64,000 nt of DNA, from contig NW_027266275.1 of the NCBI RefSeq assembly GCF_022045235.1, positions 80,166,001 to 80,230,000 on the forward strand, read 5' to 3'. This DNA is from Haliotis cracherodii. Taxonomy: Eukaryota. The position numbers and the translations under genes are program-made. The notes beneath the pieces were generated by a model. It had not been told where the DNA came from and made no database searches. It saw only the letters and a list, made by a program, of their open reading frames with translations. This document shows positions 601 through 64,000 of this stretch, piece after piece; the first letter of the stretch is position 1; each line of letters opens with the position of its first letter.

Positions 601-902
601 ATCACTTTGGTTTCTTAACAATCTTGGTGAACTTAACTACTTGAAATGCATCCTTCAATTCCTCTTATGAATAGCTTTGGTGAGGAACTAACACATACAG
701 TGTATTACAGAAGGTAGCAACATGTAAACAGAGAGATAGCAATAATGGAACATTGTAGTTCAGAAATATGAAACTAATATCTTATATTTGGGTACTTTCT
801 ATATGCTTAACTTGATTGTTACATACTATGCGAATATGTGCTCCCAATAACAGCAGTGCAATGAAACCTTGCAATCAGCATTTAAGAATCGCTTTGATGA
901 AT

Positions 903-1745: not shown

Positions 1746-1802
1746 ACTTGCATTGCCACATCCTACACTTGCACACCAAAATATCTATCCAACTGTCTGA
1801 AA

Positions 1803-3236: not shown

Positions 3237-3419
3237 CGTTGACGTCTCCCATGAACACCAATGGACTATGTCATGAATTCTGATCGTAATCAGCTGCCAA
3301 ACAACCAATCTGTGTCATGACACCTTGGCACGGCCAATTGTAACTGTGATATATAGATATACAATGGTGCTATTTTGTAGATACTGATTTGCTTCATGTA
3401 AAAGAAATGGATCGTTTGT

Positions 3420-3425
3420 AATAAA
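3420..3425 (+). terminator. Polyadenylation signal AATAAA of the array gene (repeated in each unit)
   Basis: First AATAAA after the stop (184 nt downstream), followed by T-rich sequence. Confidence 0.6.
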
Positions 3426-40797: not shown

Positions 40798-43529
40798 CGT
40801 TGACGTCTCCCATGAACACCAATGGACTATGTCATGAATTCTGATCGTAATCAGCTGCCAAACAACCAATCTGTGTCATGACACCTTGGCACGGCCAATT
40901 GTAACTGTGATATATAGATATACAATGGTGCTATTTTGTAGATACTGATTTGCTTCATGTAAAAGAAATGGATCGTTTGTAATAAATGTTACACTGTACC
41001 AAACTCTCTTTCTTGAATCATCGTAATATTATTTCTTTAGCGCTACACAGAACAATTTATATTCCAATATGACACATCCACCTGTCAGTCCAAGGAGGTT
41101 ACTCTTTTATAAACAATTAGAAAATACATACTCGTACAACTTTCGATTGCACTTCACCTTCCATCGGTCATACGTTACCAAGGATAGTTAGTTTGTGCTT
41201 GCATGTCACCTGAAATTACCTTTTCAATGCAATACATGGAATGCATACGAATTCTCTTATTGACACTTAAAATAGGTGTGATAAATAGGAAGAGCGCACT
41301 CCTCATTTTTATCATGAGAAAACACTCTTGAAGTGTATCATGATAACCTGATTAGCACAAGTAGTTGCATGCCTTTGACACAAAGGAGATTAACAAAGAG
41401 GCCACCAGTGAAAGTGACATGGCTGCAGCAAGCGAAATAAAAAACCTTAACGTATGTTGACAAGCATAAATTGATCTTCACACGCCATATCCTAACCATG
41501 TTTTTTATATGCGTCAACGAATGTGGTGTCAGCGACATTCGGCAGAATTAATCAACGATCAATCATTGTTGGCAGTAAAATTGTGAAGAGTGAAACCCTT
41601 TCTTTCCGGATGGTGCCATTCCTTGTAAAAAACGTCCGGAAAGACGAAATATATATGGATACGGCGAAAACTTTGTGTTTTCATATATACATTCCAAACA
41701 AGACTGCATTATTTAACTGGAGTGGCTACAAGTCATACAATGTTTTCGAAACCTCTGTAGCTGTCTTTTCCTTAATTACTTACCACCAATTGAAAGTGGA
41801 CTATGATTAAGGATTCCAAATCAAAGACAAAAGAATCTTATTCAGAATATTATGGTATGTTCAAGGAACCCTCTTTTTATTTCATTATAATATATATTTC
41901 GGCAATGATGGCAATGTTTATTTTTTAGTTTTAATCCATTTTTGAATTCCAATAACGCCAATAAGTAAGTAATAATTTGTAAAACATTCAGGGATGTACC
42001 AATTATTTATTTAACAAAGAAGTCAATAATGTCCTTTCAGTGTTAACAATTTCATGTTGTTTCAAGATCACAGGGCCACAGAGCAATGATAATAATAATA
42101 AGGCAGGAGACATGCTAACATACTGAGACTGAGTGTGTTGTCTGACATGGCGACGTCTACATCGACGTTGTTGCACCAAGGCATGGCGGGACACTGATAC
42201 ACACTTAGTTGAGGAGGATTAAAAATACTTGATCTTTATGATGTTTTGATGATAGATAATCTCTTATCACGACATGTGTCATTACATTCTTTATCCTCAT
42301 AAAACGGGAGAAAATGTTGCTGTGTTGATCACTTTGGTTTCTTAACAATCTTGGTGAACTTAACTACTTGAAATGCATCCTTCAATTCCTCTTATGAATA
42401 GCTTTGGTGAGGAACTAACACATACAGTGTATTACAGAAGGTAGCAACATGTAAACAGAGAGATAGCAATAATGGAACATTGTAGTTCAGAAATATGAAA
42501 CTAATATCTTATATTTGGGTACTTTCTATATGCTTAACTTGATTGTTACATACTATGCGAATATGTGCACCCAATAACAGCAGTGCAATGAAACCTTGCA
42601 ATCAGCATTTAAGAATCGCTTTGATGAATATTCACTGAGGCGTGTAATCGTTCACTCTAAAAGCTGACGAGGTGTTTTCTTAAAGGAAACTAGGAACTAG
42701 CTGAGATTAACGGGATGAGTGTGATCCGGGAGACAGGATCAGACAGTGATTGTTCGACAGTCAGATGAGACAGGGAGACGGGCTTGTTACTGTGGAGGAG
42801 CATGATAGCCGCTGTCTGGGAACTGAATAGTGAAAAGAGTATGTACCTGTAAAGATGAAGGCCATCTTACACTGACGAATTGTGAATATGCATACGCCGT
42901 GATTTAAAGAAGCATATACAGTTTCTGGGACTTGGCACCAATATATAAATATACCGAATATACATGTAAGATCAGAATTAGTTGTGCAATTTCATTGAAT
43001 CAAGAAAGCGTAATTCAATCTGACAACATCGGATTCCTGTATATAGCTTATGCGTATATTAAAATAACAATGTTTAATGTCAGAGAATCTATATTTCATG
43101 CCTTAAGAAGATAACTTCCACATGTACAGTAGTATATTACAGAATATTTTCATAAACACCTTGCTTGAAACATATGGTAATAAGATCTATGTAATTATTT
43201 TTTTCAAATTATTCGTTTGCAAAATATATTATCTGTCAAATCACAGCAACGCTTAAAATTATATCAATGTAGCAGATACGTGTTTATTTTACATACGATG
43301 CGTACAATTACACATAATACACGCGACTACCATTTCTCTAAAGCAGATTATAAGCATTGCCTGAAGGAATATGAACACCTCGCCAACACCCGGCCATTGA
43401 ATGACCACTCGTCTTGTATACACAAGTAGTTGGGTCTGGTATATAACGCTACACGGGAGCTATCACATGATCACTTGCATTGCCACATCCTACACTTGCA
43501 CACCAAAATATCTATCCAACTGTCTGAAA

Positions 43530-44963
43530 ATGTCGCAGTTTAAAATGGCAATTTTCTTTCTGATATGTGTCGGAAATGTTGGAGGACGAGGTATTGCTTT
43601 TCCCAAACAATTGCTAACCCAAGATGTTCGAGTCCTAACTGATACTTATGGGAATGGTGCACGACCTCTTGCAGATCTGTCCCCTATTGTTGGAAGGTTG
43701 AGTCATCCAGTTGATTATCAAAAGCCTTCAACACAATTCATGGTACAATTGTTTAACATTCTTCAAAAAGGGGCACCACTTGCAAGAGCGGCAGGCAGAA
43801 AGCTGAACACAGCTGATTTCAAGAAAGCAGACACCATCAGGAGCTTCACGGCTAAAGGTAATCTTTAACCTGGAGTCAGATCACATACGATTTTAATCAT
43901 TAACAAACAAATATGAAAAAAGTAAGAAATTCAATATATCAAGGCCAGGGAATAAGCAGTCTCGATTGTCTGCCGAAACAATTGCAATGCGCATAAAATG
44001 CCAAATAGTGATGGAAATTAGATGAATGGCTCGCAGACGTTAAGCATTCACTGCAAGAATATTCTTGATGTAAATGTTTTATTTGTACAACTTTGGTTTT
44101 CATGCAATGTATGTTTAATTCCAGACATGACACAAAAGAATGTAAGAAAGAGAGTTGAGCTATCGTTCAAGATTCCTAGTCTACCTGAAAACGAACGTCT
44201 CCGATTAGCTGAGTTCCGGTGCAGACGCTCTGTATCTCCTTTAAAGAAGTACAGGGTCAAGGTCATCATTCTCAAGGGAGAGAATATCGCACGAAAAGCT
44301 AACATCAGGGTCAAACCTATTACACAGGGTGAATATTATGTATTTGACATCAGTCGAGCCATCAAAGCCTTCATCAACGGTTACCACGGTGACGCCACCA
44401 TTCATGTGGAAATACCACGGACATTCTCCAGAATTCTTTTGAAAACAGCATCCGAAACTTATGGATACTTACTTGTATTTTATTTGGAAAATCGCCACTT
44501 TCTTCAAAACGTTTTGGAAACCTACAAAGTGGAAGAGCATTCCACTTTTGATGGATTAGGTAATATAGCATCACGCGCTAAAAGATCGGCACACGCCACA
44601 AGCAGACGTCGAGAACGCAAGAACAGACGATGGAAGAAGTCCGGGAAGAAACAAGGCTGTCGTCTGTACGACTTTAACGTGGACTTCAAGACGATCGGCT
44701 GGGGACAGTGGATCATCCACCCTACACGCTTCAACTCCAAATTCTGCCACGGAAACTGTCCCTCCCCCATCGACATCCGATTCAAACCCACCAATCACGC
44801 CATGTTGCAGTCACTCATGAGAAGCAAGCGCTCCAACGCTGCTCCCGACCTTTGTTGTGTCCCAACCAAACTGGAACCTCTCAGCATGATGTACGTGGAG
44901 GATGGCGAAGTTGTTGTACGTCATCACGAGGACATGATCGCCTCTGAATGTGGATGTCGATGA
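43530..44963 (+). CDS. nodal: Nodal-like precursor, array copy 11; join(43530..43857,44125..44963)
   Basis: Intact; protein identical to copy 1. Confidence 0.88.
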
Positions 44964-47695
44964 CGTTGACGTCTCCCATGAACACCAATGGACTATGTCA
45001 TGAATTCTGATCGTAATCAGCTGCCAAACAACCAATCTGTGTCATGACACCTTGGCACGGCCAATTGTAACTGTGATATATAGATATACAATGGTGCTAT
45101 TTTGTAGATACTGATTTGCTTCATGTAAAAGAAATGGATCGTTTGTAATAAATGTTACACTGTACCAAACTCTCTTTCTTGAATCATCGTAATATTATTT
45201 CTTTAGCGCTACACAGAACAATTTATATTCCAATATGACACATCCACTTGTCAGTCCAAGGAGGTTACTCTTTTATAAACAATTAGAAAATACATACTCG
45301 TACAACTTTCGATTGCACTTCACCTTCCATCGGTCATACGTTACCAAGGATAGTTAGTTTGTGCTTGCATGTCACCTGAAATTACCTTTTCAATGCAATA
45401 CATGGAATGCATACGAATTCTCTTATTGACACTTAAAATAGGTGTGATAAATAGGAAGAGCGCACTCCTCATTTTTATCATGAGAAAACACTCTTGAAGT
45501 GTATCATGATAACCTGATTAGCACAAGTAGTTGCATGCCTTTGACACAAAGGAGATTAACAAAGAGGCCACCAGTGAAAGTGACATGGCTGCAGCAAGCG
45601 AAATAAAAAACCTTAACGTATGTTGACAAGCATAAATTGATCTTCACACGCCATATCCTAACCATGTTTTTTATATGCGTCAACGAATGTGGTGTCAGCG
45701 ACATTCGGCAGAATTAATCAACGATCAATCATTGTTGGCAGTAAAATTGTGAAGAGTGAAACCCTTTCTTTCCGGATGGTGCCATTCCTTGTAAAAAACG
45801 TCCGGAAAGACGAAATATATATGGATACGGCGAAAACTTTGTGTTTTCATATATACATTCCAAACAAGACTGCATTATTTAACTGGAGTGGCTACAAGTC
45901 ATACAATGTTTTCGAAACCTCTGTAGCTGTCTTTTCCTTAATTACTTACCACCAATTGAAAGTGGACTATGATTAAGGATTCCAAATCAAAGACAAAAGA
46001 ATCTTATTCAGAATATTATGGTATGTTCAAGGAACCCTCTTTTTATTTCATTATAATATATATTTCGGCAATGATGGCAATGTTTATTTTTTAGTTTTAA
46101 TCCATTTTTGAATTCCAATAACGCCAATAAGTAAGTAATAATTTGTAAAACATTCAGGGATGTGCCAATTATTTATTTAACAAAGAAGTCAATAATGTCC
46201 TTTCAGTGTTAACAATTTCATGTTGTTTCAAGATCACAGGGCCACAGAGCAATGATAATAATAATAAGGCAGGAGACATGCTAACATACTGAGACTGAGT
46301 GTGTTGTCTGACATGGCGACGTCTACATCGACGTTGTTGCACCAAGGCATGGCGGGACACTGATACACACTTAGTTGAGGAGGATTAAAAATACTTGATC
46401 TTTATGATGTTTTGATGATAGATAATCTCTTATCACGACATGTGTCATTACATTCTTTATCCTCATAAAACGGGAGAAAATGTTGCTGTGTTGATCACTT
46501 TGGTTTCTTAACAATCTTGGTGAACTTAACTACTTGAAATGCATCCTTCAATTCCTCTTATGAATAGCTTTGGTGAGGAACTAACACATACAGTGTATTA
46601 CAGAAGGTAGCAACATGTAAACAGAGAGATAGCAATAATGGAACATTGTAGTTCAGAAATATGAAACTAATATCTTATATTTGGGTACTTTCTATATGCT
46701 TAACTTGATTGTTACATACTATGCGAATATGTGCACCCAATAACAGCAGTGCAATGAAACCTTGCAATCAGCATTTAAGAATCGCTTTGATGAATATTCA
46801 CTGAGGCGTGTAATCGTTCACTCTAAAAGCTGACGAGGTGTTTTCTTAAAGGAAACTAGGAACTAGCTGAGATTAACGGGATGAGTGTGATCCGGGAGAC
46901 AGGATCAGACAGTGATTGTTCGACAGTCAGATGAGACAGGGAGACGGGCTTGTTACTGTGGAGGAGCATGATAGCCGCTGTCTGGGAACTGAATAGTGAA
47001 AAGAGTATGTACCTGTAAAGATGAAGGCCATCTTACACTGACGAATTGTGAATATGCATACGCCGTGATTTAAAGAAGCATATACAGTTTCTGGGACTTG
47101 GCACCAATATATAAATATACCGAATATACATGTAAGATCAGAATTAGTTGTGCAATTTCATTGAATCAAGAAAGCGTAATTCAATCTGACAACATCGGAT
47201 TCCTGTATATAGCTTATGCGTATATTAAAATAACAATGTTTAATGTCAGAGAATCTATATTTCATGCCTTAAGAAGATAACTTCCACATGTACAGTAGTA
47301 TATTACAGAATATTTTCATAAACACCTTGCTTGAAACATATGGTAATAAGATCTATGTAATTATTTTTTTCAAATTATTCGTTTGCAAAATATATTATCT
47401 GTCAAATCACAGCAACGCTTAAAATTATATCAATGTAGCAGATACGTGTTTATTTTACATACGATGCGTACAATTACACATAATACACGCGACTACCATT
47501 TCTCTAAAGCAGATTATAAGCATTGCCTGAAGGAATATGAACACCTCGCCAACACCCGGCCATTGAATGACCACTCGTCTTGTATACACAAGTAGTTGGG
47601 TCTGGTATATAACGCTACACGGGAGCTATCACATGATCACTTGCATTGCCACATCCTACACTTGCACACCAAAATATCTATCCAACTGTCTGAAA

Positions 47696-49129
47696 ATGTC
47701 GCAGTTTAAAATGGCAATTTTCTTTCTGATATGTGTCGGAAATGTTGGAGGACGAGGTATTGCTTTTCCCAAACAATTGCTAACCCAAGATGTTCGAGTC
47801 CTAACTGATACTTATGGGAATGGTGCACGACCTCTTGCAGATCTGTCCCCTATTGTTGGAAGGTTGAGTCATCCAGTTGATTATCAAAAGCCTTCAACAC
47901 AATTCATGGTACAATTGTTTAACATTCTTCAAAAAGGGGCACCACTTGCAAGAGCGGCAGGCAGAAAGCTGAACACAGCTGATTTCAAGAAAGCAGACAC
48001 CATCAGGAGCTTCACGGCTAAAGGTAATCTTTAACCTGGAGTCAGATCACATACGATTTTAATCATTAACAAACAAATATGAAAAAAGTAAGAAATTCAA
48101 TATATCAAGGCCAGGGAATAAGCAGTCTCGATTGTCTGCCGAAACAATTGCAATGCGCATAAAATGCCAAATAGTGATGGAAATTAGATGAATGGCTCGC
48201 AGACGTTAAGCATTCACTGCAAGAATATTCTTGATGTAAATGTTTTATTTGTACAACTTTGGTTTTCATGCAATGTATGTTTAATTCCAGACATGACACA
48301 AAAGAATGTAAGAAAGAGAGTTGAGCTATCGTTCAAGATTCCTAGTCTACCTGAGAACGAACGTCTCCGATTAGCTGAGTTCCGGTGCAGACGCTCTGTA
48401 TCTCCTTTAAAGAAGTACAGGGTCAAGGTCATCATTCTCAAGGGAGAGAATATCGCACGAAAAGCTAACATCAGGGTCAAACCTATTACACAGGGTGAAT
48501 ATTATGTATTTGACATCAGTCGAGCCATCAAAGCCTTCATCAACGGTTACCACGGTGACGCCACCATTCATGTGGAAATACCACGGACATTCTCCAGAAT
48601 TCTTTTGAAAACAGCATCCGAAACTTATGGATACTTACTTGTATTTTATTTGGAAAATCGCCACTTTCTTCAAAACGTTTTGGAAACCTACAAAGTGGAA
48701 GAGCATTCCACTTTTGATGGATTAGGTAATATAGCATCACGCGCTAAAAGATCGGCACACGCCACAAGCAGACGTCGAGAACGCAAGAACAGACGATGGA
48801 AGAAGTCCGGGAAGAAACAAGGCTGTCGTCTGTACGACTTTAACGTGGACTTCAAGACGATCGGCTGGGGACAGTGGATCATCCACCCTACACGCTTCAA
48901 CTCCAAATTCTGCCACGGAAACTGTCCCTCCCCCATCGACATCCGATTCAAACCCACCAATCACGCCATGTTGCAGTCACTCATGAGAAGCAAGCGCTCC
49001 AACGCTGCTCCCGACCTTTGTTGTGTCCCAACCAAACTGGAACCTCTCAGCATGATGTACGTGGAGGATGGCGAAGTTGTTGTACGTCATCACGAGGACA
49101 TGATCGCCTCTGAATGTGGATGTCGATGA
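47696..49129 (+). CDS. nodal: Nodal-like precursor, array copy 12; join(47696..48023,48291..49129)
   Basis: Intact; protein identical to copy 1. Confidence 0.88.
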
Positions 49130-51861
49130 CGTTGACGTCTCCCATGAACACCAATGGACTATGTCATGAATTCTGATCGTAATCAGCTGCCAAACAACCA
49201 ATCTGTGTCATGACACCTTGGCACGGCCAATTGTAACTGTGATATATAGATATACAATGGTGCTATTTTGTAGATACTGATTTGCTTCATGTAAAAGAAA
49301 TGGATCGTTTGTAATAAATGTTACACTGTACCAAACTCTCTTTCTTGAATCATCGTAATATTATTTCTTTAGCGCTACACAGAACAATTTATATTCCAAT
49401 ATGACACATCCACCTGTCAGTCCAAGGAGGTTACTCTTTTATAAACAATTAGAAAATACATACTCGTACAACTTTCGATTGCACTTCACCTTCCATCGGT
49501 CATACGTTACCAAGGATAGTTAGTTTGTGCTTGCATGTCACCTGAAATTACCTTTTCAATGCAATACATGGAATGCATACGAATTCTCTTATTGACACTT
49601 AAAATAGGTGTGATAAATAGGAAGAGCGCACTCCTCATTTTTATCATGAGAAAACACTCTTGAAGTGTATCATGATAACCTGATTAGCACAAGTAGTTGC
49701 ATGCCTTTGACACAAAGGAGATTAACAAAGAGGCCACCAGTGAAAGTGACATGGCTGCAGCAAGCGAAATAAAAAACCTTAACGTATGTTGACAAGCATA
49801 AATTGATCTTCACACGCCATATCCTAACCATGTTTTTTATATGCGTCAACGAATGTGGTGTCAGCGACATTCGGCAGAATTAATCAACGATCAATCATTG
49901 TTGGCAGTAAAATTGTGAAGAGTGAAACCCTTTCTTTCCGGATGGTGCCATTCCTTGTAAAAAACGTCCGGAAAGACGAAATATATATGGATACGGCGAA
50001 AACTTTGTGTTTTCATATATACATTCCAAACAAGACTGCATTATTTAACTGGAGTGGCTACAAGTCATACAATGTTTTCGAAACCTCTGTAGCTGTCTTT
50101 TCCTTAATTACTTACCACCAATTGAAAGTGGACTATGATTAAGGATTCCAAATCAAAGACAAAAGAATCTTATTCAGAATATTATGGTATGTTCAAGGAA
50201 CCCTCTTTTTATTTCATTATAATATATATTTCGGCAATGATGGCAATGTTTATTTTTTAGTTTTAATCCATTTTTGAATTCCAATAACGCCAATAAGTAA
50301 GTAATAATTTGTAAAACATTCAGGGATGTACCAATTATTTATTTAACAAAGAAGTCAATAATGTCCTTTCAGTGTTAACAATTTCATGTTGTTTCAAGAT
50401 CACAGGGCCACAGAGCAATGATAATAATAATAAGGCAGGAGACATGCTAACATACTGAGACTGAGTGTGTTGTCTGACATGGCGACGTCTACATCGACGT
50501 TGTTGCACCAAGGCATGGCGGGACACTGATACACACTTAGTTGAGGAGGATTAAAAATACTTGATCTTTATGATGTTTTGATGATAGATAATCTCTTATC
50601 ACGACATGTGTCATTACATTCTTTATCCTCATAAAACGGGAGAAAATGTTGCTGTGTTGATCACTTTGGTTTCTTAACAATCTTGGTGAACTTAACTACT
50701 TGAAATGCATCCTTCAATTCCTCTTATGAATAGCTTTGGTGAGGAACTAACACATACAGTGTATTACAGAAGGTAGCAACATGTAAACAGAGAGATAGCA
50801 ATAATGGAACATTGTAGTTCAGAAATATGAAACTAATATCTTATATTTGGGTACTTTCTATATGCTTAACTTGATTGTTACATACTATGCGAATATGTGC
50901 ACCCAATAACAGCAGTGCAATGAAACCTTGCAATCAGCATTTAAGAATCGCTTTGATGAATATTCACTGAGGCGTGTAATCGTTCACTCTAAAAGCTGAC
51001 GAGGTGTTTTCTTAAAGGAAACTAGGAACTAGCTGAGATTAACGGGATGAGTGTGATCCGGGAGACAGGATCAGACAGTGATTGTTCGACAGTCAGATGA
51101 GACAGGGAGACGGGCTTGTTACTGTGGAGGAGCATGATAGCCGCTGTCTGGGAACTGAATAGTGAAAAGAGTATGTACCTGTAAAGATGAAGGCCATCTT
51201 ACACTGACGAATTGTGAATATGCATACGCCGTGATTTAAAGAAGCATATACAGTTTCTGGGACTTGGCACCAATATATAAATATACCGAATATACATGTA
51301 AGATCAGAATTAGTTGTGCAATTTCATTGAATCAAGAAAGCGTAATTCAATCTGACAACATCGGATTCCTGTATATAGCTTATGCGTATATTAAAATAAC
51401 AATGTTTAATGTCAGAGAATCTATATTTCATGCCTTAAGAAGATAACTTCCACATGTACAGTAGTATATTACAGAATATTTTCATAAACACCTTGCTTGA
51501 AACATATGGTAATAAGATCTATGTAATTATTTTTTTCAAATTATTCGTTTGCAAAATATATTATCTGTCAAATCACAGCAACGCTTAAAATTATATCAAT
51601 GTAGCAGATACGTGTTTATTTTACATACGATGCGTACAATTACACATAATACACGCGACTACCATTTCTCTAAAGCAGATTATAAGCATTGCCTGAAGGA
51701 ATATGAACACCTCGCCAACACCCGGCCATTGAATGACCACTCGTCTTGTATACACAAGTAGTTGGGTCTGGTATATAACGCTACACGGGAGCTATCACAT
51801 GATCACTTGCATTGCCACATCCTACACTTGCACACCAAAATATCTATCCAACTGTCTGAAA

Positions 51862-53295
51862 ATGTCGCAGTTTAAAATGGCAATTTTCTTTCTGATATGT
51901 GTCGGAAATGTTGGAGGACGAGGTATTGCTTTTCCCAAACAATTGCTAACCCAAGATGTTCGAGTCCTAACTGATACTTATGGGAATGGTGCACGACCTC
52001 TTGCAGATCTGTCCCCTATTGTTGGAAGGTTGAGTCATCCAGTTGATTATCAAAAGCCTTCAACACAATTCATGGTACAATTGTTTAACATTCTTCAAAA
52101 AGGGGCACCACTTGCAAGAGCGGCAGGCAGAAAGCTGAACACAGCTGATTTCAAGAAAGCAGACACCATCAGGAGCTTCACGGCTAAAGGTAATCTTTAA
52201 CCTGGAGTCAGATCACATACGATTTTAATCATTAACAAACAAATATGAAAAAAGTAAGAAATTCAATATATCAAGGCCAGGGAATAAGCAGTCTCGATTG
52301 TCTGCCGAAACAATTGCAATGCGCATAAAATGCCAAATAGTGATGGAAATTAGATGAATGGCTCGCAGACGTTAAGCATTCACTGCAAGAATATTCTTGA
52401 TGTAAATGTTTTATTTGTACAACTTTGGTTTTCATGCAATGTATGTTTAATTCCAGACATGACACAAAAGAATGTAAGAAAGAGAGTTGAGCTATCGTTC
52501 AAGATTCCTAGTCTACCTGAGAACGAACGTCTCCGATTAGCTGAGTTCCGGTGCAGACGCTCTGTATCTCCTTTAAAGAAGTACAGGGTCAAGGTCATCA
52601 TTCTCAAGGGAGAGAATATCGCACGAAAAGCTAACATCAGGGTCAAACCTATTACACAGGGTGAATATTATGTATTTGACATCAGTCGAGCCATCAAAGC
52701 CTTCATCAACGGTTACCACGGTGACGCCACCATTCATGTGGAAATACCACGGACATTCTCCAGAATTCTTTTGAAAACAGCATCCGAAACTTATGGATAC
52801 TTACTTGTATTTTATTTGGAAAATCGCCACTTTCTTCAAAACGTTTTGGAAACCTACAAAGTGGAAGAGCATTCCACTTTTGATGGATTAGGTAATATAG
52901 CATCACGCGCTAAAAGATCGGCACATGCCACAAGCAGACGTCGAGAACGCAAGAACAGACGATGGAAGAAGTCAGGGAAGAAACAAGGCTGTCGTCTGTA
53001 CGACTTTAACGTGGACTTCAAGACGATCGGCTGGGGACAGTGGATCATCCACCCTACACGCTTCAACTCCAAATTCTGCCACGGAAACTGTCCCTCCCCC
53101 ATCGACATCCGATTCAAACCCACCAATCACGCCATGTTGCAGTCACTCATGAGAAGCAAGCGCTCCAACGCTGCTCCCGACCTTTGTTGTGTCCCAACCA
53201 AACTGGAACCTCTCAGCATGATGTACGTGGAGGATGGCGAAGTTGTTGTACGTCATCACGAGGACATGATCGCCTCTGAATGTGGATGTCGATGA
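51862..53295 (+). CDS. nodal: Nodal-like precursor, array copy 13; join(51862..52189,52457..53295)
   Basis: Intact; protein identical to copy 1. Confidence 0.88.
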
Positions 53296-55908
53296 CGTTG
53301 ACGTCTCCCATGAACACCAATGGACTATGTCATGAATTCTGATCGTAATCAGCTGCCAAACAACCAATCTGTGTCATGACACCTTGGCACGGCCAATTGT
53401 AACTGTGATATATAGATATACAATGGTGCTATTTTGTAGATACTGATTTGCTTCATGTAAAAGAAATGGATCGTTTGTAATAAATGTTACACTGTACCAA
53501 ACTCTCTTTCTTGAATCATCGTAATATTATTTCTTTAGCGCTACACAGAACAATTTATATTCCAATATGACACATCCACCTGTCAGTCCAAGGAGGTTAC
53601 TCTTTTATAAACAATTAGAAAATACATACTCGTACAACTTTCGATTGCACTTCACCTTCCATCGGTCATACGTTACCAAGGATAGTTAGTTTGTGCTTGC
53701 ATGTCACCTGAAATTACCTTTTCAATGCAATACATGGAATGCATACGAATTCTCTTATTGACACTTAAAATAGGTGTGATAAATAGGAAGAGCGCACTCC
53801 TCATTTTTATCATGAGAAAACACTCTTGAAGTGTATCATGATAACCTGATTAGCACAAATAGTTGCATGCCTTTGACACAAAGGAGATTAACAAAGAGGC
53901 CACCAGTGAAAGTGACATGGCTGCAGCAAGCGAAATAAAAAACCTTAACGTATGTTGACAAGCATAAATTAAAACCCTTTCTTTCCGGATGGTGCCATTC
54001 CTTGTAAAAAACGTCCGGAAAGACGAAATATATATGGATACGGCGAAAACTTTGTGTTTTCATATATACATTCCAAACAAGACTGCATTATTTAACTGGA
54101 GTGGCTACAAGTCATACAATGTTTTCGAAACCTCTGTAGCTGTCTTTTCCTTAATTACTTACCACCAATTGAAAGTGGACTATGATTAAGGATTCCAAAT
54201 CAAAGACAAAAGAATCTTATTCAGAATATTATGGTATGTTCAAGGAACCCTCTTTTTATTTCATTATAATATATATTTCGGCAATGATGGCAATGTTTAT
54301 TTTTTAGTTTTAATCCATTTTTGAATTCCAATAACGCCAATAAGTAAGTAATAATTTGTAAAACATTCAGGGATGTACCAATTATTTATTTAACAAAGAA
54401 GTCAATAATGTCCTTTCAGTGTTAACAATTTCATGTTGTTTCAAGATCACAGGGCCACAGAGCAATGATAATAATAATAAGGCAGGAGACATGCTAACAT
54501 ACTGAGACTGAGTGTGTTGTCTGACATGGCGACGTCTACATCGACGTTGTTGCACCAAGGCATGGCGGGACACTGATACACACTTAGTTGAGGAGGATTA
54601 AAAATACTTGATCTTTATGATGTTTTGATGATAGATAATCTCTTATCACGACATGTGTCATTACATTCTTTATCCTCATAAAACGGGAGAAAATGTTGCT
54701 GTGTTGATCACTTTGGTTTCTTAACAATCTTGGTGAACTTAACTACTTGAAATGCATCCTTCAATTCCTCTTATGAATAGCTTTGGTGAGGAACTAACAC
54801 ATACAGTGTATTACAGAAGGTAGCAACATGTAAACAGAGAGATAGCAATAATGGAACATTGTAGTTCAGAAATATGAAACTAATATCTTATATTTGGGTA
54901 CTTTCTATATGCTTAACTTGATTGTTACATACTATGCGAATATGTGCACCCAATAACAGCAGTGCAATGAAACCTTGCAATCAGCATTTAAGAATCGCTT
55001 TGATGAATATTCACTGAGGCGTGTAATCGTTCACTCTAAAAGCTGACGAGGTGTTTTCTTAAAGGAAACTAGGAACTAGCTGAGATTAACGGGATGAGTG
55101 TGATCCGGGAGACAGGATCAGACAGTGATTGTTCGACAGTCAGATGAGACAGGGAGACGGGCTTGTTACTGTGGAGGAGCATGATAGCCGCTGTCTGGGA
55201 ACTGAATAGTGAAAAGAGTATGTACCTGTAAAGATGAAGGCCATCTTACACTGACGAATTGTGAATATGCATACGCCGTGATTTAAAGAAGCATATACAG
55301 TTTCTGGGACTTGGCACCAATATATAAATATACCGAATATACATGTAAGATCAGAATTAGTTGTGCAATTTCATTGAATCAAGAAAGCGTAATTCAATCT
55401 GACAACATCGGATTCCTGTATATAGCTTATGCGTATATTAAAATAACAATGTTTAATGTCAGAGAATCTATATTTCATGCCTTAAGAAGATAACTTCCAC
55501 ATGTACAGTAGTATATTACAGAATATTTTCATAAACACCTTGCTTGAAACATATGGTAATAAGATCTATGTAATTATTTTTTTCAAATTATTCGTTTGCA
55601 AAATATATTATCTGTCAAATCACAGCAAGGCTTAAAATTATATCAATGTAGCAGATACGTGTTTATTTTACATACGATGCGTACAATTACACATAATACA
55701 CGCGACTACCATTTCTCTAAAGCAGATTATAAGCATTGCCTGAAGGAATATGAACACCTCGCCAACACCCGGCCATTGAATGACCACTCGTCTTGTATAC
55801 ACAAGTAGTTGGGTCTGGTATATAACGCTACACGGGAGCTATCACATGATCACTTGCATTGCTACATCCTACGCTTGCACACCAAAATATTTATCCAACT
55901 GTCTGAAA

Positions 55909-57342
55909 ATGTCGCAGTTTAAAATGGCAATTTTCTTTCTGATATGTGTCGGAAATGTTGGAGGACGAGGTATTGCTTTTCCCAAACAATTGCTAACCCA
56001 AGATGTTCGAGTCCTAACTGATACTTATGGGAATGGTGCACGACCTCTTGCAGATCTGTCCCCTATTGTTGGAAGGTTGAGTCATCCAGTTGATTATCAA
56101 AAGCCTTCAACACAATTCATGGTACAATTGTTTAACATTCTTCAAAAAGGGGCACCACTTGCAAGAGCGGCAGGCAGAAAGCTGAACACAGCTGATTTCA
56201 AGAAAGCAGACACCATCAGGAGCTTCAAGGCTAAAGGTAATCTTTAACCTGGAGTCAGATCACATACGATTTTAATCATTAACAAACAAATATGAAAAAA
56301 GTAAGAAATTCAATATATCAAGGCCAGGGAATAAACAGTCTCGATTGTCTGCCGAAACAATTGCAATGCGCATAAAATGCCAAATAGTGATGGAAATTAG
56401 ATGAATGGCTCGCAGACGTTAAGCATTCACTGCAAGAATATTCTTGATGTAAATGTTTTATTTGTACAGCTTTGGTTTTCATGCAATGTATGTTTAATTC
56501 CAGACATGACACAAAAGAATGTAAGAAAGAGAGTTGAGCTATCGTTCAAGATTCCTAGTCTACCTGAGAAAGAACGTCTCCGATTAGCTGAGTTCCGGTG
56601 CAGACGCTCTGTATCTCCTTTAAAGAAGTACAGGGTCAAGGTCATCATTCTCAAGGGAGAGAATATCGCACGAAAAGCTAACATCAGGGTCAAACCTATT
56701 ACACAGGGTGAATATTATGTATTTGACATCAGTCGAGCCATCAAAGCCTTCATCAACGGTTACCACGGTGACGCCACCATTCATGTGGAAATACCACGGA
56801 CATTCTCCAGAATTCTTTTGAAAACAGCATCCGAAACTTATGGATACTTACTTGTATTTTATTTGGAAAATCGCCACTTTCTTCAAAACGTTTTGGAAAC
56901 CTACAAAGTGGAAGAGCATTCCACTTTTGATGGATTAGGTAATATAGCATCACGCGCTAAAAGATCGGCACATGCCACAAACAGACGTCGAGAACGCAAG
57001 AACAGACGATGGAAGAAGTCAGGGAAGAAACAAGGCTGTCGTCTGTACGACTTTAACGTGGACTTCAAGACGATCGGCTGGGGACAGTGGATCATCCACC
57101 CTACACGCTTCAACTCCAAATTCTGCCACGGAAACTGTCCCTCCCCCATCGACATCCGATTCAAACCCACCAATCACGCCATGTTGCAGTCACTCATGAG
57201 AAGCAAGCGCTCCAACGCTGCTCCCGACCTTTGTTGTGTCCCAACCAAACTGGAACCTCTCAGCATGATGTACGTGGAAGATGGCGAAGTTGTTGTACGT
57301 CATCACGAGGACATGATCGCCTCTGAATGTGGATGTCGTTGA
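55909..57342 (+). CDS. nodal: Nodal-like precursor, array copy 14 (edge copy); join(55909..56236,56504..57342)
   Basis: Intact; three private changes SFTA>SFKA, PENE>PEKE, ATSR>ATNR. Confidence 0.88.
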
Positions 57343-58466
57343 CGATGACGTCTCTCACGAACACCAATGGACTATGTCATGAATTCTGATCGTAATCAGC
57401 TGCCAAACAACCAATCTGTGTCATGACACCTTGGCACGGCCAATTGTAACTGTGATATATAGATATACAATGGTGCTATTTTGTAGATACTGATTTGCTT
57501 CATGTAAAAGAAATGGATCGTTTGTAATAAATGTTACACTGTACCAAACTCTCTTTCTTGAATCATCGTAATATTATTTATTTAGCGCTACACAGAACAA
57601 TTTATATTCCAATATGACACATCCAACTAGTCAGTCCAAGGAGGTTACTCTTTTATAAACAATTAGAAAATACATACTCGTACAACTTTCGATTGCACTT
57701 CACCTTCCATCGGTCATACGTTACCAAGGATAGTTAGTTTGTGCTTGCATGTCACCTGAAATTACCTTTTCAATGCAATACATGGAATGCATACGAATTC
57801 TCTTATTGACACTTAAAATAGGTGTGATAAATAGAAAGAGCGCACTCCTCATTTTTATCATGAGAAAACACTCTTGAAGTGTATCATGATAACCTGATTA
57901 GCACAAGTAGTTGCATGCCTTTGACACAAAGGAGATTAACAAAGAGGCCACCAGTGAAAGTGACATGGCTGCAGCAAGCGAAATAAAACCTTAACGTATG
58001 TTGACAAGCATAAATTGATTTTCACACGCCATATCCTAACCATGTTTTCTATATGCGTCAACGAATGTGGTGTCAGCGACATTCGGCAGAATTAATCAAC
58101 GATCAATCATTGTTGGCAGTAAAATTGTGAAGAGTGAAACCCTTTCTTTCCGGATGGTGCCATTCCTTGTAAAAAGCGTCCGGAAAGACGAATTATATAT
58201 GGATACGGCGAAAACTTTGCATTTGTACCCTCTTTTGTATTTCATTATAATATATATTTCGGCAATGAAGGCATTGTTTTTTCTTTCTTGGGTTAGTGAA
58301 TAGCTGATAGTTTTAATCCCTTTTGGAATTCCAATAACGCCAATAAGTAAGTAATAATTTGTAAAACATTCTTGGATGTGCCAATTATTTATTTAACAAA
58401 GAAGTCAATAAAGTCCTTTCAGTTTTAGCAAGTTTATATTCTTGAGGAGTATACATATACATGTAA

Positions 58467-58630
58467 GTGAGTGAGTGGATATACTTTTACACCGCCTTTA
58501 GCAGTATTTCAGCATCATCAAGGCGAGGAATACTAAAAATGAGATTTACATAGTTTACCCATGAAGGGAACCGAACATGGGTTTTCATTTTTGGGCAAAC
58601 GCTGAAAACACTAGACAGCCTCACCGCCCC
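58467..58630 (-). mobile_element. Degenerate, roughly full-length tRNA-derived SINE-like element with (CACT)n tail
   Basis: The minus strand starts GGGGCGGTGAGGCTGTCTAGTG (A-box-like), has GTTCGGTTCCC (B-box-like) and ends ...GCTGAAATACTGCTAAAGGCGGTGTAAAA...CACTCACTCAC, homologous to the tails at 59623 and 63935. Confidence 0.7.
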
Positions 58631-59298
58631 TTATACATTGAAGAAAATATTCAAACATTATCATGAACATCAAAATACTTTACTCTTTAAGTTATTTTAT
58701 AATCATTTGTCATCTTTATCCTATAGAATGTAACCCGTTTCATCCGAACGGCTTCGTTCCCAGCAAATTCGTGCGTTTTAACCAATTTCCGTGTAATGGG
58801 GAGTCACCGTATGGATAATTTTACCTGTTGCAGCAAATTCGTCAAATTATGAACGGAAATTATGAACTGCAACATGTTGATAGATGTAGAATGCAAAATG
58901 CGTGTACATGAAAACAATATGGAAACTACAGGAATGTTGAAGTGTTCATGTCTAATCAAGAGATGCATACAAGTACATGCATCTTCAAGAATAAAAAAGA
59001 CATGAATATGTAAGGGATTAGAATCAAATGAAGCTGTGATAGCATGTCTAAATATACAACGTGAAGGAACCTTTACACCACTAAACAGTAGTATTATTAA
59101 ATTGCAACTGCTTCGCCATCAACGTATGAACGTGCATGTAACATTGATTGCAACGTTTTGCGGTTCAAACGGGAGGATGTAACCTGGATAAGTTCCAAAA
59201 TATAAATTATTCATTCATTTTGTTTTCAAAAACATGTACGCGTATCATAAGGTGTATTATTATGGATAGCAGCTTCTTTATTTTACTTGCACAATGTC

Positions 59299-59707
59299 GT
59301 CAGGTAAAGGGACAAGAAGTAGCCCTGAATCCAACTTCGATATTCCAATGAACGCTCTCAAATAGCTGTACTGTCACTTTAATATTTTTCTTTCAGCCTC
59401 AAGCGACTAAGCCTAACCATAAAGATTTCGAAGGGCCTCAAAGTCAGTTCTGTAAATACCAATAAAAATGTCTTCAATCTCTGACAGAATAGTGTGATGA
59501 ACTGTTTTCATTTCACCAACAAGGACATCGATTGGAAAAGATTATTGGTGGAACAGTTTAGCAGTTTAATCATTAACAGGGTTAGACTATGAGTATTCCA
59601 GTTAGACGATTCTGGAAGACAGCATTTCTGGTGTGCCCCGCCGTGATATTGCTGGAATATTGCTAAAAGCGACGTAAAACAATACTCACTCACTCACTGG
59701 AAGACAG
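59299..59707 (+). repeat. ~400 bp direct repeat, copy A (partner at 63543-64000)
   Basis: Near-identical from CGAAGGGCCTCAAA (~59430 / ~63741) onward at offset 4312; more diverged, with a ~50 bp indel, in the 5' part. Confidence 0.9.
59623..59696 (+). mobile_element. 5'-truncated SINE-like insertion with 11-bp target-site duplication
   Basis: CCGCCGTGATATTGCTGGAATATTGCTAAAAGCGACGTAAAACAATA(CTCA)n flanked by CTGGAAGACAG at 59612-59622 and 59697-59707. Confidence 0.8.
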
Positions 59708-61018
59708 ACTTGTTACAAGTAATGATGGTTGTTGTTCGGCGTCTGACGTTGCCTTTATGTTGAACAGCAGAACGAATTAATGCAGTGTTTCTGATACAGT
59801 GTGTAGAGTTAAATCTAATAATAACCTTTTCGTAAATGTATCAACCTACTTCATTATAAATCGTAGAAATTAAAAGATACATCATTTAGGAATTAGTTTA
59901 AAGATAATTTATGGGGAAAATATTCTCATGCTTACACATAATACGCTAAAAACAATACTTCTTCATTCAAATGAGTGCATGTGTCTTCCATTCTTGTTGT
60001 TTTAAAGAGCATACTGCATCGGAAAATAGATAACGCAACATGATTTTACTGCTATTCAGCAAATGGTTTGGAAAAGATATGTTATTACATTGAACATATT
60101 TTATTTTCAAGGAGCAGTGATTTTAACAATTTATATAAAGTTTGTTTATTGAGATAGTTTAGTTACTCTCAGCATAACGACTAGCTGCAAATTGGAATTC
60201 TAATAGAGCCAATCAGAAAATAATGACTTTGGTTATATCCAGAGATGTACAAATTATTCATTCTTCGTAAATCAAGAAGTAAATAATGTCTTTTGATTCA
60301 CTTTCACCATATTGATTCAACAACAAGAGGCCAAATAGCAATGATGATAGCACAGGAGACATGCTAACTGTCTGACACTTCTGCATATGCTGACTGTGGT
60401 GTCTGACATGCATGGCGACTTCGTCATAAACATTGCTGCAATAACACATGTCGGGACATTGATAGACACTCAGCTGAGAAGGATTTAAAATAATTGATCT
60501 TTGTATTGTTTTGATGATAGACAATCTCGTTTTATGACATGTACCCATACACTTCCCTCTCCATTTAAAACGGAAGAAAGTGTGTGTGTTTGGATCAGAC
60601 AAAAACAATATTCTATATGTGATCGTCATATGCCATGTACACTTTCCTTAGGAGAAGATGTGTTCTGATATCTTGAAGTGAATCATTAGATTCCAACGTA
60701 AATGAACTTGGAGTGAAGGTAACACACATAACATAAATATAAGTATGTATACCGAAACATCGCCTTTCCAAGAAGTTGTTATTCATAAATTGTGTCTACT
60801 TTAACAAACACAATGTAGTTATATTACAGACGATACCAACGTGTAGATATCAATCTTGGAAATATTCCTGTTAGGGAAAAGAACAAATGATATGTAGGTA
60901 GTGATACTTTCTATGCTTATATTGATCTTACATACTGCGTAAATGTTTGCGAAAAGGATAGGAGTGAAGTAAAATCTCTGCAACCTAAAGAAACAAAGGT
61001 GTAATCCGTTCCATGAAC

Positions 61019-61213
61019 ATTCACTGTGGCGTGTAATGGGTTACTCTTTAACCTGACGAGTTGTTTTCTTAAACTAATGACAACAGTAATAAGCTTAGAT
61101 TAGCGCAATGAGAGTGATCCTGAAGACAGGATCAGACAGTGATTGTTCGACAGTCAGATGAGACAGGGAGACAGGCTTGTTACTGTGGAATGGGGATGAT
61201 CGCCCCTGTCTGG
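61019..61213. promoter_or_regulatory. Same candidate enhancer upstream of the diverged paralog
   Basis: Homolog of 903-1092, retaining all four AGAC motifs, ATTGTT, CTGACGAG and CTGTCTGG. Confidence 0.7.
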
Positions 61214-61606
61214 TGAACGGATATCGAAATCCTTGTTTATCTATGAATATTGAATATATTTTATATCTATGAGAAACAGCTTACTAGTACATATTTGAAG
61301 AGAAAAATCAAACAAATTGAAAACATACAAAATCCAAGAAGTCTCTCCACTGTCATAAGATTACCTTTTAAAGTAGACATTTCACGAAATGGTCATATAC
61401 ATTAGCAAAATTAATTACTAATTTAAAGAATCCGAGGTATCAGAATATGTATGGCTAATGTGTGTTTAATTGTTCATTTCACAAAATATTAGGTTATTTT
61501 CCTCAAAACCTTGCATTAAAGGTATGATGTAGTGATGTAACCAGAAGGTGTTATTTTACATGAAGAAGCTAAAACTAGATCTGATGCACGCGACATGTCC
61601 TTACGA

Positions 61607-61735
61607 CAGATTATAATCATTGCCTGAAGGAATATGGACACCTCGCCAACACCCGACCATTATGTTACCACTTGTCTTGTTTACACAAGTAGTAGGGTCT
61701 GGTATATAACGCCACACTGAAGCTATCACATCATC
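61607..61735 (+). promoter_or_regulatory. Core/proximal promoter of the diverged paralog (TATATAA 61703-61709)
   Basis: Aligns with 1617-1745, while the sequence just upstream aligns poorly. Confidence 0.8.
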
Positions 61736-61792
61736 GCTTGCATTGCTGCATCCTACACTGACAAACCAAAACATCAATCCAGGTATTAGAAA

Positions 61793-63091
61793 ATGTCGCA
61801 GTGTAAAATCGCCATTTTATTTCTGACATATCTCGCCAATGTTGGAGCACGTCGCTTAGCTTCACCCAAACAATGGCTAAACCAGGAGTTTCAAGTCAAA
61901 CCTCACACTTACCGGAATGAGGGAAAACATGTTGCAGACATATCCCCTTTTGTCAGCAAGCTGAGTCATACAGTTGATTATCAAAAGGATTCAACCAAAT
62001 TCCTGGTGCGATTGTTTAATATTCTTCAAAATGGGGCACCACTTGCATCAGCAGCAGGCAGAAAGCTCAAAACAGCTGATTTGATGAAAGTCGACACTAT
62101 CAGGAGCTTCGCAGCTAAAGGTAAGCTTAACACCAGACTGACTGGTGTGTAGATGTGCAATACAAACCCGGAAAATATCTTTCTGATTCCAAACAAGAAT
62201 CTATTTTGGAAAAATGCTTCACCTTTTTATTTACTTTTTATTATGATCCTGTTTCCTATTTCAGACATGAGTAAAATCAATGAAAGCAGCAGATTTGGCC
62301 TTTCGTTCAAGATACCTAGTCTGCCTCAGGACGAGAGTCTCCGATTAGCTGAGTTCCGGTGCCCACGCGCTCTCTCCCTTCTAAAGAAGTACAAGGTCAA
62401 GATCAGCATTTTCAAGGGAGAGAAGATCGCAAGAAAAGTTACCATCAGAGTCCAACCTACTACACACCGTGAAGATTTTGTTTTTGACATCAGTCGAGCC
62501 ATCACTGCCTGGGTCAACGGTTACCACGGTGACGTCACCATTCATGTGGAAATGCCGCGGACTTTTTTCCGACTTCTTTCGAAAACAACATCCGAAGCTT
62601 ATGAAAACTTACTTGTTTTGTATTTGGAAAATCAGGACTTTCTTCAAAACGTTTTGGTTAAAGAGCAGTCTACATACGATGGATTGATGAATAGCGCATC
62701 GCGTGGTAAGAGATCTACACCTGACATAATCAGACGTCGTCGACGCAAGAACAGAAGATGGAATAAGGCAGGAAAGAAACAAGGCTGTCGTCTGTACGAT
62801 TTTGACGTGGACTTCAACACAATCGGCTGGGGACAGTGGATCATCCACCCTACACGCTTCAACTCCAAATTCTGTCACGGAAACTGTCCCTCCCCGATCG
62901 ACGTCCGCCACAAACCCACCAACCACGCCATGTTGCAGTCACTCATGAGAAGCAAGCGTTCCAACATCGCTCCCTCCCCTTGTTGTGTCCCTACCAAACT
63001 GGAACCTCTCAGTATGATGTACGTGGAGGATGGCGAAGTCGTTGTACGTCATCACGAGGACATGATCGCCTCTGAATGTGGCTGTCGGTGA
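61793..63091 (+). CDS. nodal: Diverged Nodal-like paralog; join(61793..62120,62265..63091), 384 aa
   Basis: Same 328-nt first coding exon and same phase-1 intron position (AAAG|GTAAGC...TTTCAG|AC, 144 bp); signal-like N-terminus MSQCKIAILFLTYLANVGA; RGKR furin site; 7-Cys domain 94/101 identical to the array type. Confidence 0.88.
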
Positions 63092-63169
63092 CGTCCACCA
63101 AGCATAAAACGTTTGAGAGGTTTGAGAATGCCATGTGATAACCGTATCAGTGCTATTATTATTTATACT

Positions 63170-63175
63170 AATAAA
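63170..63175 (+). terminator. Polyadenylation signal AATAAA of the diverged paralog
   Basis: First AATAAA after the stop at 63091, followed by GT/T-rich sequence. Confidence 0.55.
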
Positions 63176-63542
63176 CTTGTATTGATAAAATGTCTTGATG
63201 CTTTGTCTTTCACTGGTTAATTATTCGATCTGTCTTGGATATGTTCTTATAATACACTATACAATGTGTACCTCTAGTGCTACAAAGAACATCTTTCACT
63301 CACAATGTGAAGATAAACCCTTCAGTCTATGTGGCTTACTCCATCATAAACGATTGTAAAGGACATATTCCTGCAACATTTGAATGCACCTCACAATCGG
63401 TAAATTAGTTGAACGCGTTCTTGTGACGGCATTTTAGTTCCTTACTATAAATGTTTGTTTGTGGGTTTTTTTCAAAAACATGATCTCGGTACAAGGAGTA
63501 TTATTATTGATAACAACTTCTTTATTATACATACACAACTTC

Positions 63543-64000
63543 ATCAGGTGAAGGTACAAGAAGTAGCCATGGAACGATGTACATGTATTTGAATAATAAA
63601 GAAGTTGTTGAACCTAATAATATTCCCTGTCATGTTTACATCCAACTTCGATATTCCTATAAACACTCTCAAATAGCTGTACTGTCACTTTGATATTTTT
63701 GCTTGCAACTACAAGCGACTGAGTCTACAAATGCAGATCGCGAAGGGCCTCAAATTCAGTTCTGTAAATACCAATAAAAATGTCTTCAATCTCTGACAGA
63801 ATAGTGTGATGAACTGTTTTCATTTCACCAACAAGGACATCGATGGGAAAAGATTATTGGTGGAACAGTTTAGCAGTTTAATCATTAACAGGGTTAGACT
63901 ATGAGTATTCTAGTTAGACGAGTCTGGAAGACAGCATTTCTGATGTCCCCCGCCGTGATATTGCTGGAATATGGCTAAAAGCGGCGTAAAACAATACTCA
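63543..64000 (+). repeat. ~400 bp direct repeat, copy B (partner at 59299-59707)
   Basis: AATAAAAATGTCTTCAATCTCTGACAG at 59461 and 63773; identity continues to the window end. Confidence 0.9.
63935..64000 (+). mobile_element. Duplicated copy of the same truncated SINE-like insertion (runs off the window end)
   Basis: Same left flank CTGGAAGACAG (63924-63934) and same truncation point as at 59623. Confidence 0.75.

What the first reader, a model, noticed from the sequence alone, without database searches (positions are those of the whole stretch)
59299..64000. Diverged paralog is bracketed by a 4,312-bp-spaced direct repeat: a second, older tier of the gene cluster probably continues to the right
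Seen: the block at 59.3-59.7 kb recurs at 63.5-64.0 kb in the same orientation, enclosing exactly one gene with its upstream elements. The spacing is close to the 4.19 kb array period, and this block is absent from the array unit. Inference: the diverged gene is itself a unit of a tandem series (type B), so the locus is a two-tier cluster of a homogenised type A array next to type B copies.
Basis: partly seen in the sequence, partly recalled or inferred. Interest (0 to 1): 0.7.

Follow-up and report, generated by a model that had tools for sequence, protein, structure and literature searches.

The report
Second tier of abalone Nodal cluster
In an abalone genome, a repeated stretch of non-coding DNA on both sides of a Nodal-like developmental gene most likely marks where a second, older run of tandem gene copies begins beside a run of at least 14 near-identical copies, an ordinary duplication process acting on a gene that other snails keep in one or two copies.

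Summary
The repeat is real: 59,220-59,688 recurs at 63,466-64,000 and is cut off by the window edge. It encloses one intact two-exon Nodal-like gene (B, 384 aa), 73% identical to the 14 array genes (A). The block is composite: a foldback element, a 283-bp core found only in these two places, and a 5'-truncated SINE-like insert at the same site in both copies, so the copies come from one duplication. Their mismatch falls from 19% to 16% to 3% left to right, mirroring the A array's right edge (0.07% to 8%). That pattern is expected at the end of a tandem series. A named Haliotis cracherodii protein, 377/384 identical to B and not encoded in the window, lies on a contig of the same length as a window-encoded protein. 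A further B copy to the right is therefore likely (about 0.7) but unseen; an allele or a lost copy is not excluded. B split from A long ago (dS 0.31). The mechanism is ordinary and Xenopus has similar Nodal clusters; my searches found no report for abalone.

The parts
59220..59707 (+). Block copy 1; proposed left edge of the first B-type unit
   Evidence: Matches 63,466-64,000 as far as 59,688
59220..59328 (.). Left half of a foldback element; the right arm is missing in this copy (68-bp gap)
   Evidence: 86 matches, 20 mismatches to 63,466-63,571; gap shown
59329..59611 (.). Non-coding core of the block; 15.7% mismatch to copy 2 over 59,329-59,443, 1.8% over 59,444-59,611
   Evidence: change point near 59,430, reached by 0 of 2000 permutations; stop codons in 6 of 6 frames
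59612..59707 (+). 5'-truncated SINE-like insert with a short tetranucleotide tail, flanked by an 11-bp target-site duplication (59,612-59,622 and 59,697-59,707)
   Evidence: 59 of 76 identical to the 3' end of the longer copy at 58,466-58,631
59910..61792 (+). 5' flank of gene B, homologous in order to the A unit's 5' flank; TATA-like box at 61,703
   Evidence: Segments at 70%, 76% and 80% identity; weak collinear match from 59,910, reached by 0 of 300 shuffles in a position-restricted test but only equal to the best shuffle in a wider one
61793..62120 (+). Nodal-like gene B, exon 1 (328 nt)
   Evidence: 98% identical to the H. cracherodii protein P0003
62121..62264 (+). Gene B intron (144 nt, GT-AG, same position as in A)
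62265..63091 (+). Nodal-like gene B, exon 2: rest of the prodomain, furin-type site, seven-cysteine mature domain
   Evidence: Pfam TGF_beta E 6.8e-33
63272..63401 (+). 3' non-coding element shared with the A unit (53,533-53,666)
   Evidence: Score 97, reached by 0 of 300 shuffles
63466..64000 (+). Block copy 2, cut by the window end; proposed start of the next B-type unit
63476..63637 (.). Complete ~160-bp foldback (imperfect palindrome)
   Evidence: Arms 63,491-63,545 and 63,576-63,630, 76% complementary; folding z -6.9, 0 of 200 shuffles as stable
63924..64000 (+). Same target-site sequence and same truncated SINE-like insert in copy 2
   Evidence: 73 of 77 identical to 59,612-59,688
58632..59219 (.). 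Unique spacer between the A array and the B unit
   Evidence: Hits only itself in the window; no significant match to the A or B units
58466..58631 (-). Apparently full-length, diverged SINE-like element at the end of the A array
   Evidence: B-box match, tetranucleotide tail; the A-box pattern did not match
58227..58443 (+). Relic of a further A-type unit (upstream fragment only), 8.3% diverged
1..58219 (+). Type A array: 14 intact two-exon Nodal-like genes (388 aa), periods 4,189 x8, 4,047, 4,168, 4,166, 4,166, 4,047; runs off the left edge

Best explanation
The two blocks are the same spacer position in successive head-to-tail units of a B-type Nodal-like series, with copy 1 at the series' left end. 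SHOWN: the copies share three features in the same order (foldback, core, SINE-like insert at one target site), so they come from one duplication; gene B is intact; mismatch drops towards the right. INFERRED: an old tandem duplication beginning near 59,220 copied block plus gene. Later unequal crossing-over or gene conversion with a neighbouring unit overwrote everything right of about 59,430, while the outer 210 bp was left to diverge. A B-type gene about 97-98% identical should then start near 66,105, and P0003 may be that gene or a later one. The block itself is probably a passive spacer of mobile-element relics that supplies homology for exchange. INFERRED BY ANALOGY ONLY: the cluster (canonical nodal, A array, B series) raises or diversifies Nodal ligand output in the early embryo.
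For: Shared insert with the same flank and truncation point. Mismatch 20/106, 18/115, 3/168 and 4/77 from left to right; change point reached by 0 of 2000 permutations. The presumably neutral insert is also young relative to the left part (4/66 against 38/220, Fisher p 0.028), so selection alone is an unlikely cause. The A array's right edge shows the mirror gradient: 0.07%, 0.63%, 1.0%, 2.4%, 8.3%, and unit 14 has 17 private substitutions against 0-3 in the other 13. Homogenised centres with variant ends are reported for Drosophila satellite arrays (PMC5411766). P0003 (H. cracherodii, 384 aa) differs from B at 7 of 384 residues and is not flagged as window-encoded. It is listed on one contig of 82,358,895 bp, the length also given for P0004, which equals exon 2 of window copies 7 and 8, including a variant found in only those 2 of 14. 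The B cluster has 7 member sequences.
Against: Nothing right of 64,000 was seen. The position of P0003 on its contig is unknown, and 'same contig' rests on equal lengths. Seven amino-acid differences are compatible with two alleles of one gene if diversity is about 1% and constraint is weak (P 0.17 at pi 0.0103 and omega 0.49; 0.025 at pi 0.0064). The 7 members may come from several species or isoforms: the apparently single-copy canonical nodal cluster has 5. Conversion between just two blocks 4.3 kb apart could give the same gradient with no second gene. Two further searches (B exon 1 against longer proteins, B exon 2 against shorter ones) found no additional B-type cluster. No expression data were seen.
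Confidence: 0.72

Rival explanations
1. Relic duplication: the block was duplicated long ago, the second gene was lost or never copied, and local gene conversion between the two blocks made their right parts alike. B is a single diverged gene beside the A array, as single Xnr6 lies beside many Xnr5 in Xenopus; P0003 is an allele or lies elsewhere.
For: The A array itself ends in a gene-less relic (58,227-58,443). An allelic P0003 is not excluded. The Xenopus layout is described in PMC12344233.
Against: P0003 and the window-encoded P0004 are listed on contigs of identical length. The high-identity tract is at least 245 bp and still running at the window edge.
Confidence: 0.17
2. The block is a dispersed composite mobile element (for example a non-autonomous rolling-circle or DNA element carrying a SINE fragment) that landed twice near gene B.
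For: Two of its three parts look like mobile elements, and a third SINE-like copy lies 1.1 kb away on the other strand. Genome-wide copy number could not be tested.
Against: The core occurs at 2 places in 64 kb, both in one orientation and one unit apart. Two insertions of one element should differ evenly, not by 19% at one end and 2% at the other. The left boundary fades out, with a further 15-of-17 match at 59,191 (3 of 300 shuffles as good), rather than ending sharply.
Confidence: 0.07
3. Assembly artefact: two haplotypes joined in tandem produce a false duplication at the edge of a difficult array.
For: Arrays of 99.7-99.9% identical 4-kb units are hard to assemble (general knowledge); no reads were seen.
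Against: The left part differs at 38 of 220 sites, far above reported diversity of 0.0064-0.0103 (P below 1e-33), and even the right part (7 of 245) exceeds it (P 0.001-0.014). The flank left of copy 1 is unrelated to the flank left of copy 2.
Confidence: 0.04

Closest known systems
Xenopus Nodal2 clusters (single Xnr6 with multiple Xnr5; Xnr1 and Xnr2 with multiple Xnr3), as described in PMC12344233 (passages)
   Same: A Nodal paralogue multiplied in tandem next to diverged paralogues; copy number hard to resolve.
   Different: Independent origin in a mollusc: the A and B genes form an abalone-only clade sister to canonical abalone nodal. At least 14 A copies are visible. Expression and function here are unknown.
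nodalA/nodalB paralogue pairs of Crepidula fornicata and Patella vulgata (PMC9907556, passages)
   Same: Lineage-specific Nodal duplication in gastropods; same seven-cysteine ligand.
   Different: Two paralogues there, against three lineages and at least 15 copies in 64 kb here. No tandem array appears in the passages read.
Concerted evolution with variant ends and end-clustered transposons in the Drosophila Rsp satellite (PMC5411766, abstract and passages)
   Same: Homogeneous centre, more diverged and truncated units at the end, mobile elements at the edge.
   Different: Here the units are 4.2-4.3 kb protein-coding genes, and two series appear to meet back to back across a 0.8-kb spacer.
Haliotis SINEs (Hdi MESC SINE, PMC4758252; HalSINE1, PMC4824008; passages)
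   Same: tRNA-like head with a B box, 3' short tandem repeat, target-site duplication.
   Different: Family not assigned: the consensus sequences are in figures and supplements that I did not see. Haliotis MESC SINEs are said to end in (CACCT)n and to carry a (CA)n microsatellite, whereas this 166-bp element ends in a CACT-type repeat.

Membership tests
Nodal subfamily of TGF-beta ligands (gene B) | TGF-beta mature domain with seven conserved cysteines | tested here: met
   Pfam PF00019 E 6.8e-33; 7 cysteines at the same positions as in Lottia nodal
Nodal subfamily of TGF-beta ligands (gene B) | Basic proprotein cleavage site before the mature domain | tested here: met
   RGKR and RRRR in B, RAKR in A; cleavage itself untested
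Nodal subfamily of TGF-beta ligands (gene B) | Closer to Nodal than to BMP, GDF or activin ligands | tested here: met
   Nested among gastropod Nodal proteins, sister to H. cracherodii nodal P0007 at 98/99 (the tree held no designated BMP or activin outgroup). Best PDB hit is a Nodal/BMP2 chimera (E 9e-33), ahead of BMP2 (3e-28).
Nodal subfamily of TGF-beta ligands (gene B) | N-terminal signal peptide | tested here: inconclusive
   Only a hydropathy peak at residues 6-14 (2.6 in B, 3.2 in A)
Nodal subfamily of TGF-beta ligands (gene B) | Asymmetric embryonic expression and Smad2/3 signalling to Pitx | not testable with these tools
   No expression data
Tandem gene array under concerted evolution (B series) | Two or more complete head-to-tail units | tested here: inconclusive
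   One full unit plus 535 bp of the next in the window; a second B-type protein of unknown position
Tandem gene array under concerted evolution (B series) | Outer edge more diverged than the interior | tested here: met
   18.9%, 15.7%, 1.8% from left to right
Tandem gene array under concerted evolution (A series) | Copies within a species closer to each other than to another species' copies | tested here: met
   Window A copies group together (100/98) and the two H. rubra proteins group together (100/99); units differ by 2-29 substitutions in about 4.1 kb
tRNA-derived SINE (58,466-58,631 and the two inserts) | Internal polymerase III A and B boxes | tested here: inconclusive
   B-box pattern matched, A-box pattern did not (both patterns from recall)
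tRNA-derived SINE (58,466-58,631 and the two inserts) | 3' simple-repeat tail and target-site duplication | tested here: met
   Tetranucleotide tail; 11-bp direct repeat at 59,612 and 59,697
tRNA-derived SINE (58,466-58,631 and the two inserts) | Many dispersed copies; match to a named family consensus | not testable with these tools
   No eukaryotic DNA or repeat library could be searched
MITE (foldback at 63,476-63,637) | Terminal inverted repeats | tested here: met
MITE (foldback at 63,476-63,637) | Target-site duplication and high copy number | tested here: inconclusive
   No clear duplication by eye at the ends; copy number untestable

The most novel reading that the evidence does not exclude
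Abalones carry a three-tier Nodal family (canonical gene, a B series, a high-copy A series) in which A and B split tens of millions of years ago, before the East-West Pacific abalone split. Each series has since been homogenised separately, and they keep different prodomains (dN about 0.2) on a near-constant mature ligand (dN 0.04). This would be a protostome parallel to the Xenopus Xnr3/Xnr5 amplification, with copy number used to set the dose or timing of Nodal in the embryo.
Probability: 0.3. Interest if true: 0.72.

Novelty: new variant of a known kind. Interest (0 to 1): 0.48.

Why it matters
Nodal sets left-right asymmetry in snails and is dose-sensitive: overexpressed nodalB gave symmetrical Crepidula larvae in proportion to dose (PMC9907556, passage). 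A cluster of at least 15 intact copies in two diverged series raises a testable question about how such a signal tolerates or uses amplification. The repeat itself is an ordinary duplication junction, but it preserves a clear record of two series' edges facing each other. Four searches (listings of 20 of 82, 25 of 51, 40 of 104 and 1 of 1 papers, open-licence library only) showed no report of an abalone Nodal array.

Tried and rejected
Listing the members of the protein clusters could not be done, so the species, accessions and positions of the 7 B-type and 11 A-type members stay unknown. Searches with B exon 1 (longer proteins, 184 candidates) and B exon 2 (shorter proteins, 11 candidates) returned only P0003 and a Lottia fragment. 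Block as an LTR pair: rejected, because it encloses an intron-bearing host gene and the copies differ unevenly. Block as coding sequence: stops in 6 of 6 frames of the core. Block as a known RNA: one Rfam match in 53,900-64,000, mir-5014 at 24 bits against a gathering score of 101 (E 0.21), read as a chance hairpin match; no tRNA. Shared spacer between A and B units: not found (176 and 181 of 300 shuffles scored as well). A lost B gene left of block 1: the spacer does not match B's 3' flank. A and B as a clade confined to this species: not rejected by the AU test (p 0.055), so the early split is favoured but not proven.
Full report
Observation. Self-comparison of the window confirms a same-strand repeat: 59,329-59,688 matches 63,640-64,000 at 92.8%, and 59,220-59,327 matches 63,466-63,571 at 79.6%. 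Copy 1 lacks 68 bp present in copy 2, so the offset is 4,244-4,246 on the left and 4,311-4,312 on the right. The match runs to the last base of the window. Between the copies lies one intact gene, B (exons 61,793-62,120 and 62,265-63,091; 384 aa). To its left are 14 intact A genes of 388 aa with the same intron position; the last of them matches B at 279 of 384 residues. The block is absent from the A unit.

What the genes are. B exon 2 carries a Pfam TGF_beta domain, seven cysteines and basic cleavage sites; its best PDB match is a Nodal/BMP2 chimera. The homologue search returned 56 proteins among 305 candidates, led by Haliotis proteins. I built a tree from 21 named hits plus 3 window proteins, leaving out hits from unnamed sources, P0004 and most bird and fish rows. 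Canonical H. cracherodii nodal (P0007) is sister to an abalone-only group. Within that group B and P0003 form one branch, and A groups with H. rubra and H. asinina proteins at 96/91; a 12-row tree gave 94/93. Forcing A and B together is not rejected (AU p 0.055), so a split before the East-West Pacific divergence (36.4 Ma in bioRxiv 2024.09.16.613283, passages) is favoured but unproven. A against B: dS 0.31, dN 0.15 overall and 0.043 in the mature domain. With that preprint's white abalone rate (8.6e-9 per 6-year generation) this is very roughly 100 Myr, the left part of the block about 70 Myr, its right part about 10 Myr, and differences among internal A units about 0.2-1.3 Myr. These are order-of-magnitude figures.

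Anatomy of the block. It has three parts. First, a ~160-bp foldback, complete in copy 2 (63,476-63,637; z -6.9) and missing its right arm in copy 1. Second, a 283-bp non-coding core found at only these 2 places in the window. Third, a ~75-bp insert flanked in copy 1 by an 11-bp direct repeat; copy 2 has the same left flank and the same insert start. The insert matches the 3' end of a 166-bp minus-strand element at 58,466-58,631 with a B box and a tetranucleotide tail, which reads as a SINE. I did not assign it to a family: PMC4758252 and PMC4824008 were read as passages only, and their consensus sequences lie in figures and supplements I did not see. Independent insertion at the same site with the same truncation is very unlikely (established knowledge of retroposons), so the two blocks share one ancestor.

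The gradient. Mismatch between the copies is 20/106, 18/115, 3/168 and 4/77 from left to right. A change point near 59,430 was reached by 0 of 2000 permutations. The insert, presumably neutral, is more alike than the left part (Fisher p 0.028), which points to recent exchange rather than selection. The A array gives an internal control. Going right from 54,109, divergence from internal units is 0.07%, 0.63%, 1.0%, 2.4% and then 8.3% in a gene-less relic at 58,227-58,443, against 0.05-0.07% between two pairs of internal neighbours. The two gradients face each other across a SINE-like element and 588 bp of unique spacer. Homogenised centres, variant ends and end-clustered transposons are described for the Drosophila Rsp array (PMC5411766, abstract and passages).

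Outside evidence for a second B gene. P0003, named 'nodal homolog [Haliotis cracherodii]', has B's length and differs at 7 of 384 residues in both exons. It is not flagged as window-encoded. It is listed on one contig of 82,358,895 bp, as are P0007 and P0004; P0004 is identical to exon 2 of window copies 7 and 8, including their private variant. I infer that the window lies on that contig and that P0003 is a second B locus there. Against this: the position is unknown, the link is only an equal length, and 7 differences could be allelic (P 0.003-0.81 across the diversity and constraint values tried; diversity from PMC11518883 and the preprint, passages). The cluster's 7 members may span species, since canonical nodal has 5. 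Member lists could not be obtained, and two more searches added no B-type cluster.

On the period. A and B are homologous from about 59,910 to 63,401, some 3.5 kb, and their remaining spacers are unrelated. Similar periods therefore mostly reflect the size of the gene with its flanks, not a common repeat unit. If the period holds, the next ATG is at 66,105.

How it works. Shown: common descent of the two blocks, an intact B gene, polar divergence at both edges. Inferred: tandem duplication from about 59,220, followed by unequal exchange or conversion that renewed the part right of about 59,430, with at least one more B unit downstream (0.72). Rivals are a relic duplication with local conversion and no second gene (0.17), a dispersed composite element (0.07) and an assembly artefact (0.04). 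A dosage or timing role for the copies is an analogy only; no expression data were seen.

Comparison and novelty. Tandem Nodal expansion beside single paralogues is known in Xenopus (PMC12344233, passages). Two-paralogue cases are known in Crepidula and Patella, where excess nodalB abolishes asymmetry dose-dependently (PMC9907556, passages). Gastropod nodal is expressed from about the 32-cell stage (PMC5104510, passages). An abalone genome paper on asymmetry names nodal twice, and the 12 of 27 passages shown mention no array (PMC13544226). Searches (listings only, open-licence library, no supplements opened) showed no report of an abalone Nodal array; subscription papers were not searchable. 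Verdict: a real feature with an ordinary mechanism, probably marking a second tier of an unusual and apparently unreported molluscan Nodal cluster. New variant of a known kind; interest 0.48.

Noticed in passing
window 61,124-61,188 and 55,110-55,174: A 65-bp upstream stretch is 64/65 identical between B and A despite dS 0.31, and four AGAC words lie within 61,124-61,172 (alignment). AGAC is the Smad-binding element from recall, so this may be an autoregulatory enhancer; recent A-B conversion is the alternative.
   Followed up: partly
window 1-58,219: The A array has two subtypes split by a 22-bp indel (units 1-9 and 10-14), and neighbouring units share variants. The same 119-bp deletion occurs in units 9 and 13, suggesting a multi-unit exchange.
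   Followed up: partly
window 58,220-58,443: The terminal A relic keeps the 22-bp segment of units 1-9 although it sits beside units 10-14, and it follows a deletion of about 190 bp replaced by 7 bp.
   Followed up: partly
A genes, window 1,803-57,342: All 14 A reading frames are intact; 10 non-synonymous and 6 synonymous variants segregate among them, giving 8 distinct proteins.
   Followed up: partly
P0005, P0008, P0006: Two H. rubra A-like proteins, 233/237 identical where aligned, are listed on contigs of the same length (93,838 bp), and P0005 has 4 members; the H. asinina protein has 2. Multiple A-like copies may be general in the genus.
   Followed up: partly
P0007: Canonical H. cracherodii nodal is listed on a contig of the same length as the A- and B-type proteins, so all three lineages may share a chromosome; its distance from the window is unknown.
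   Followed up: no
window 63,490-63,631: The foldback gives a weak Rfam match to mir-5014 (24 bits against 101, E 0.21), probably a chance hairpin match; whether it is transcribed is unknown.
   Followed up: partly
window 61,221-61,272: A 26-bp head-to-tail duplication at 73% identity lies upstream of gene B, just after a segment conserved with A.
   Followed up: no
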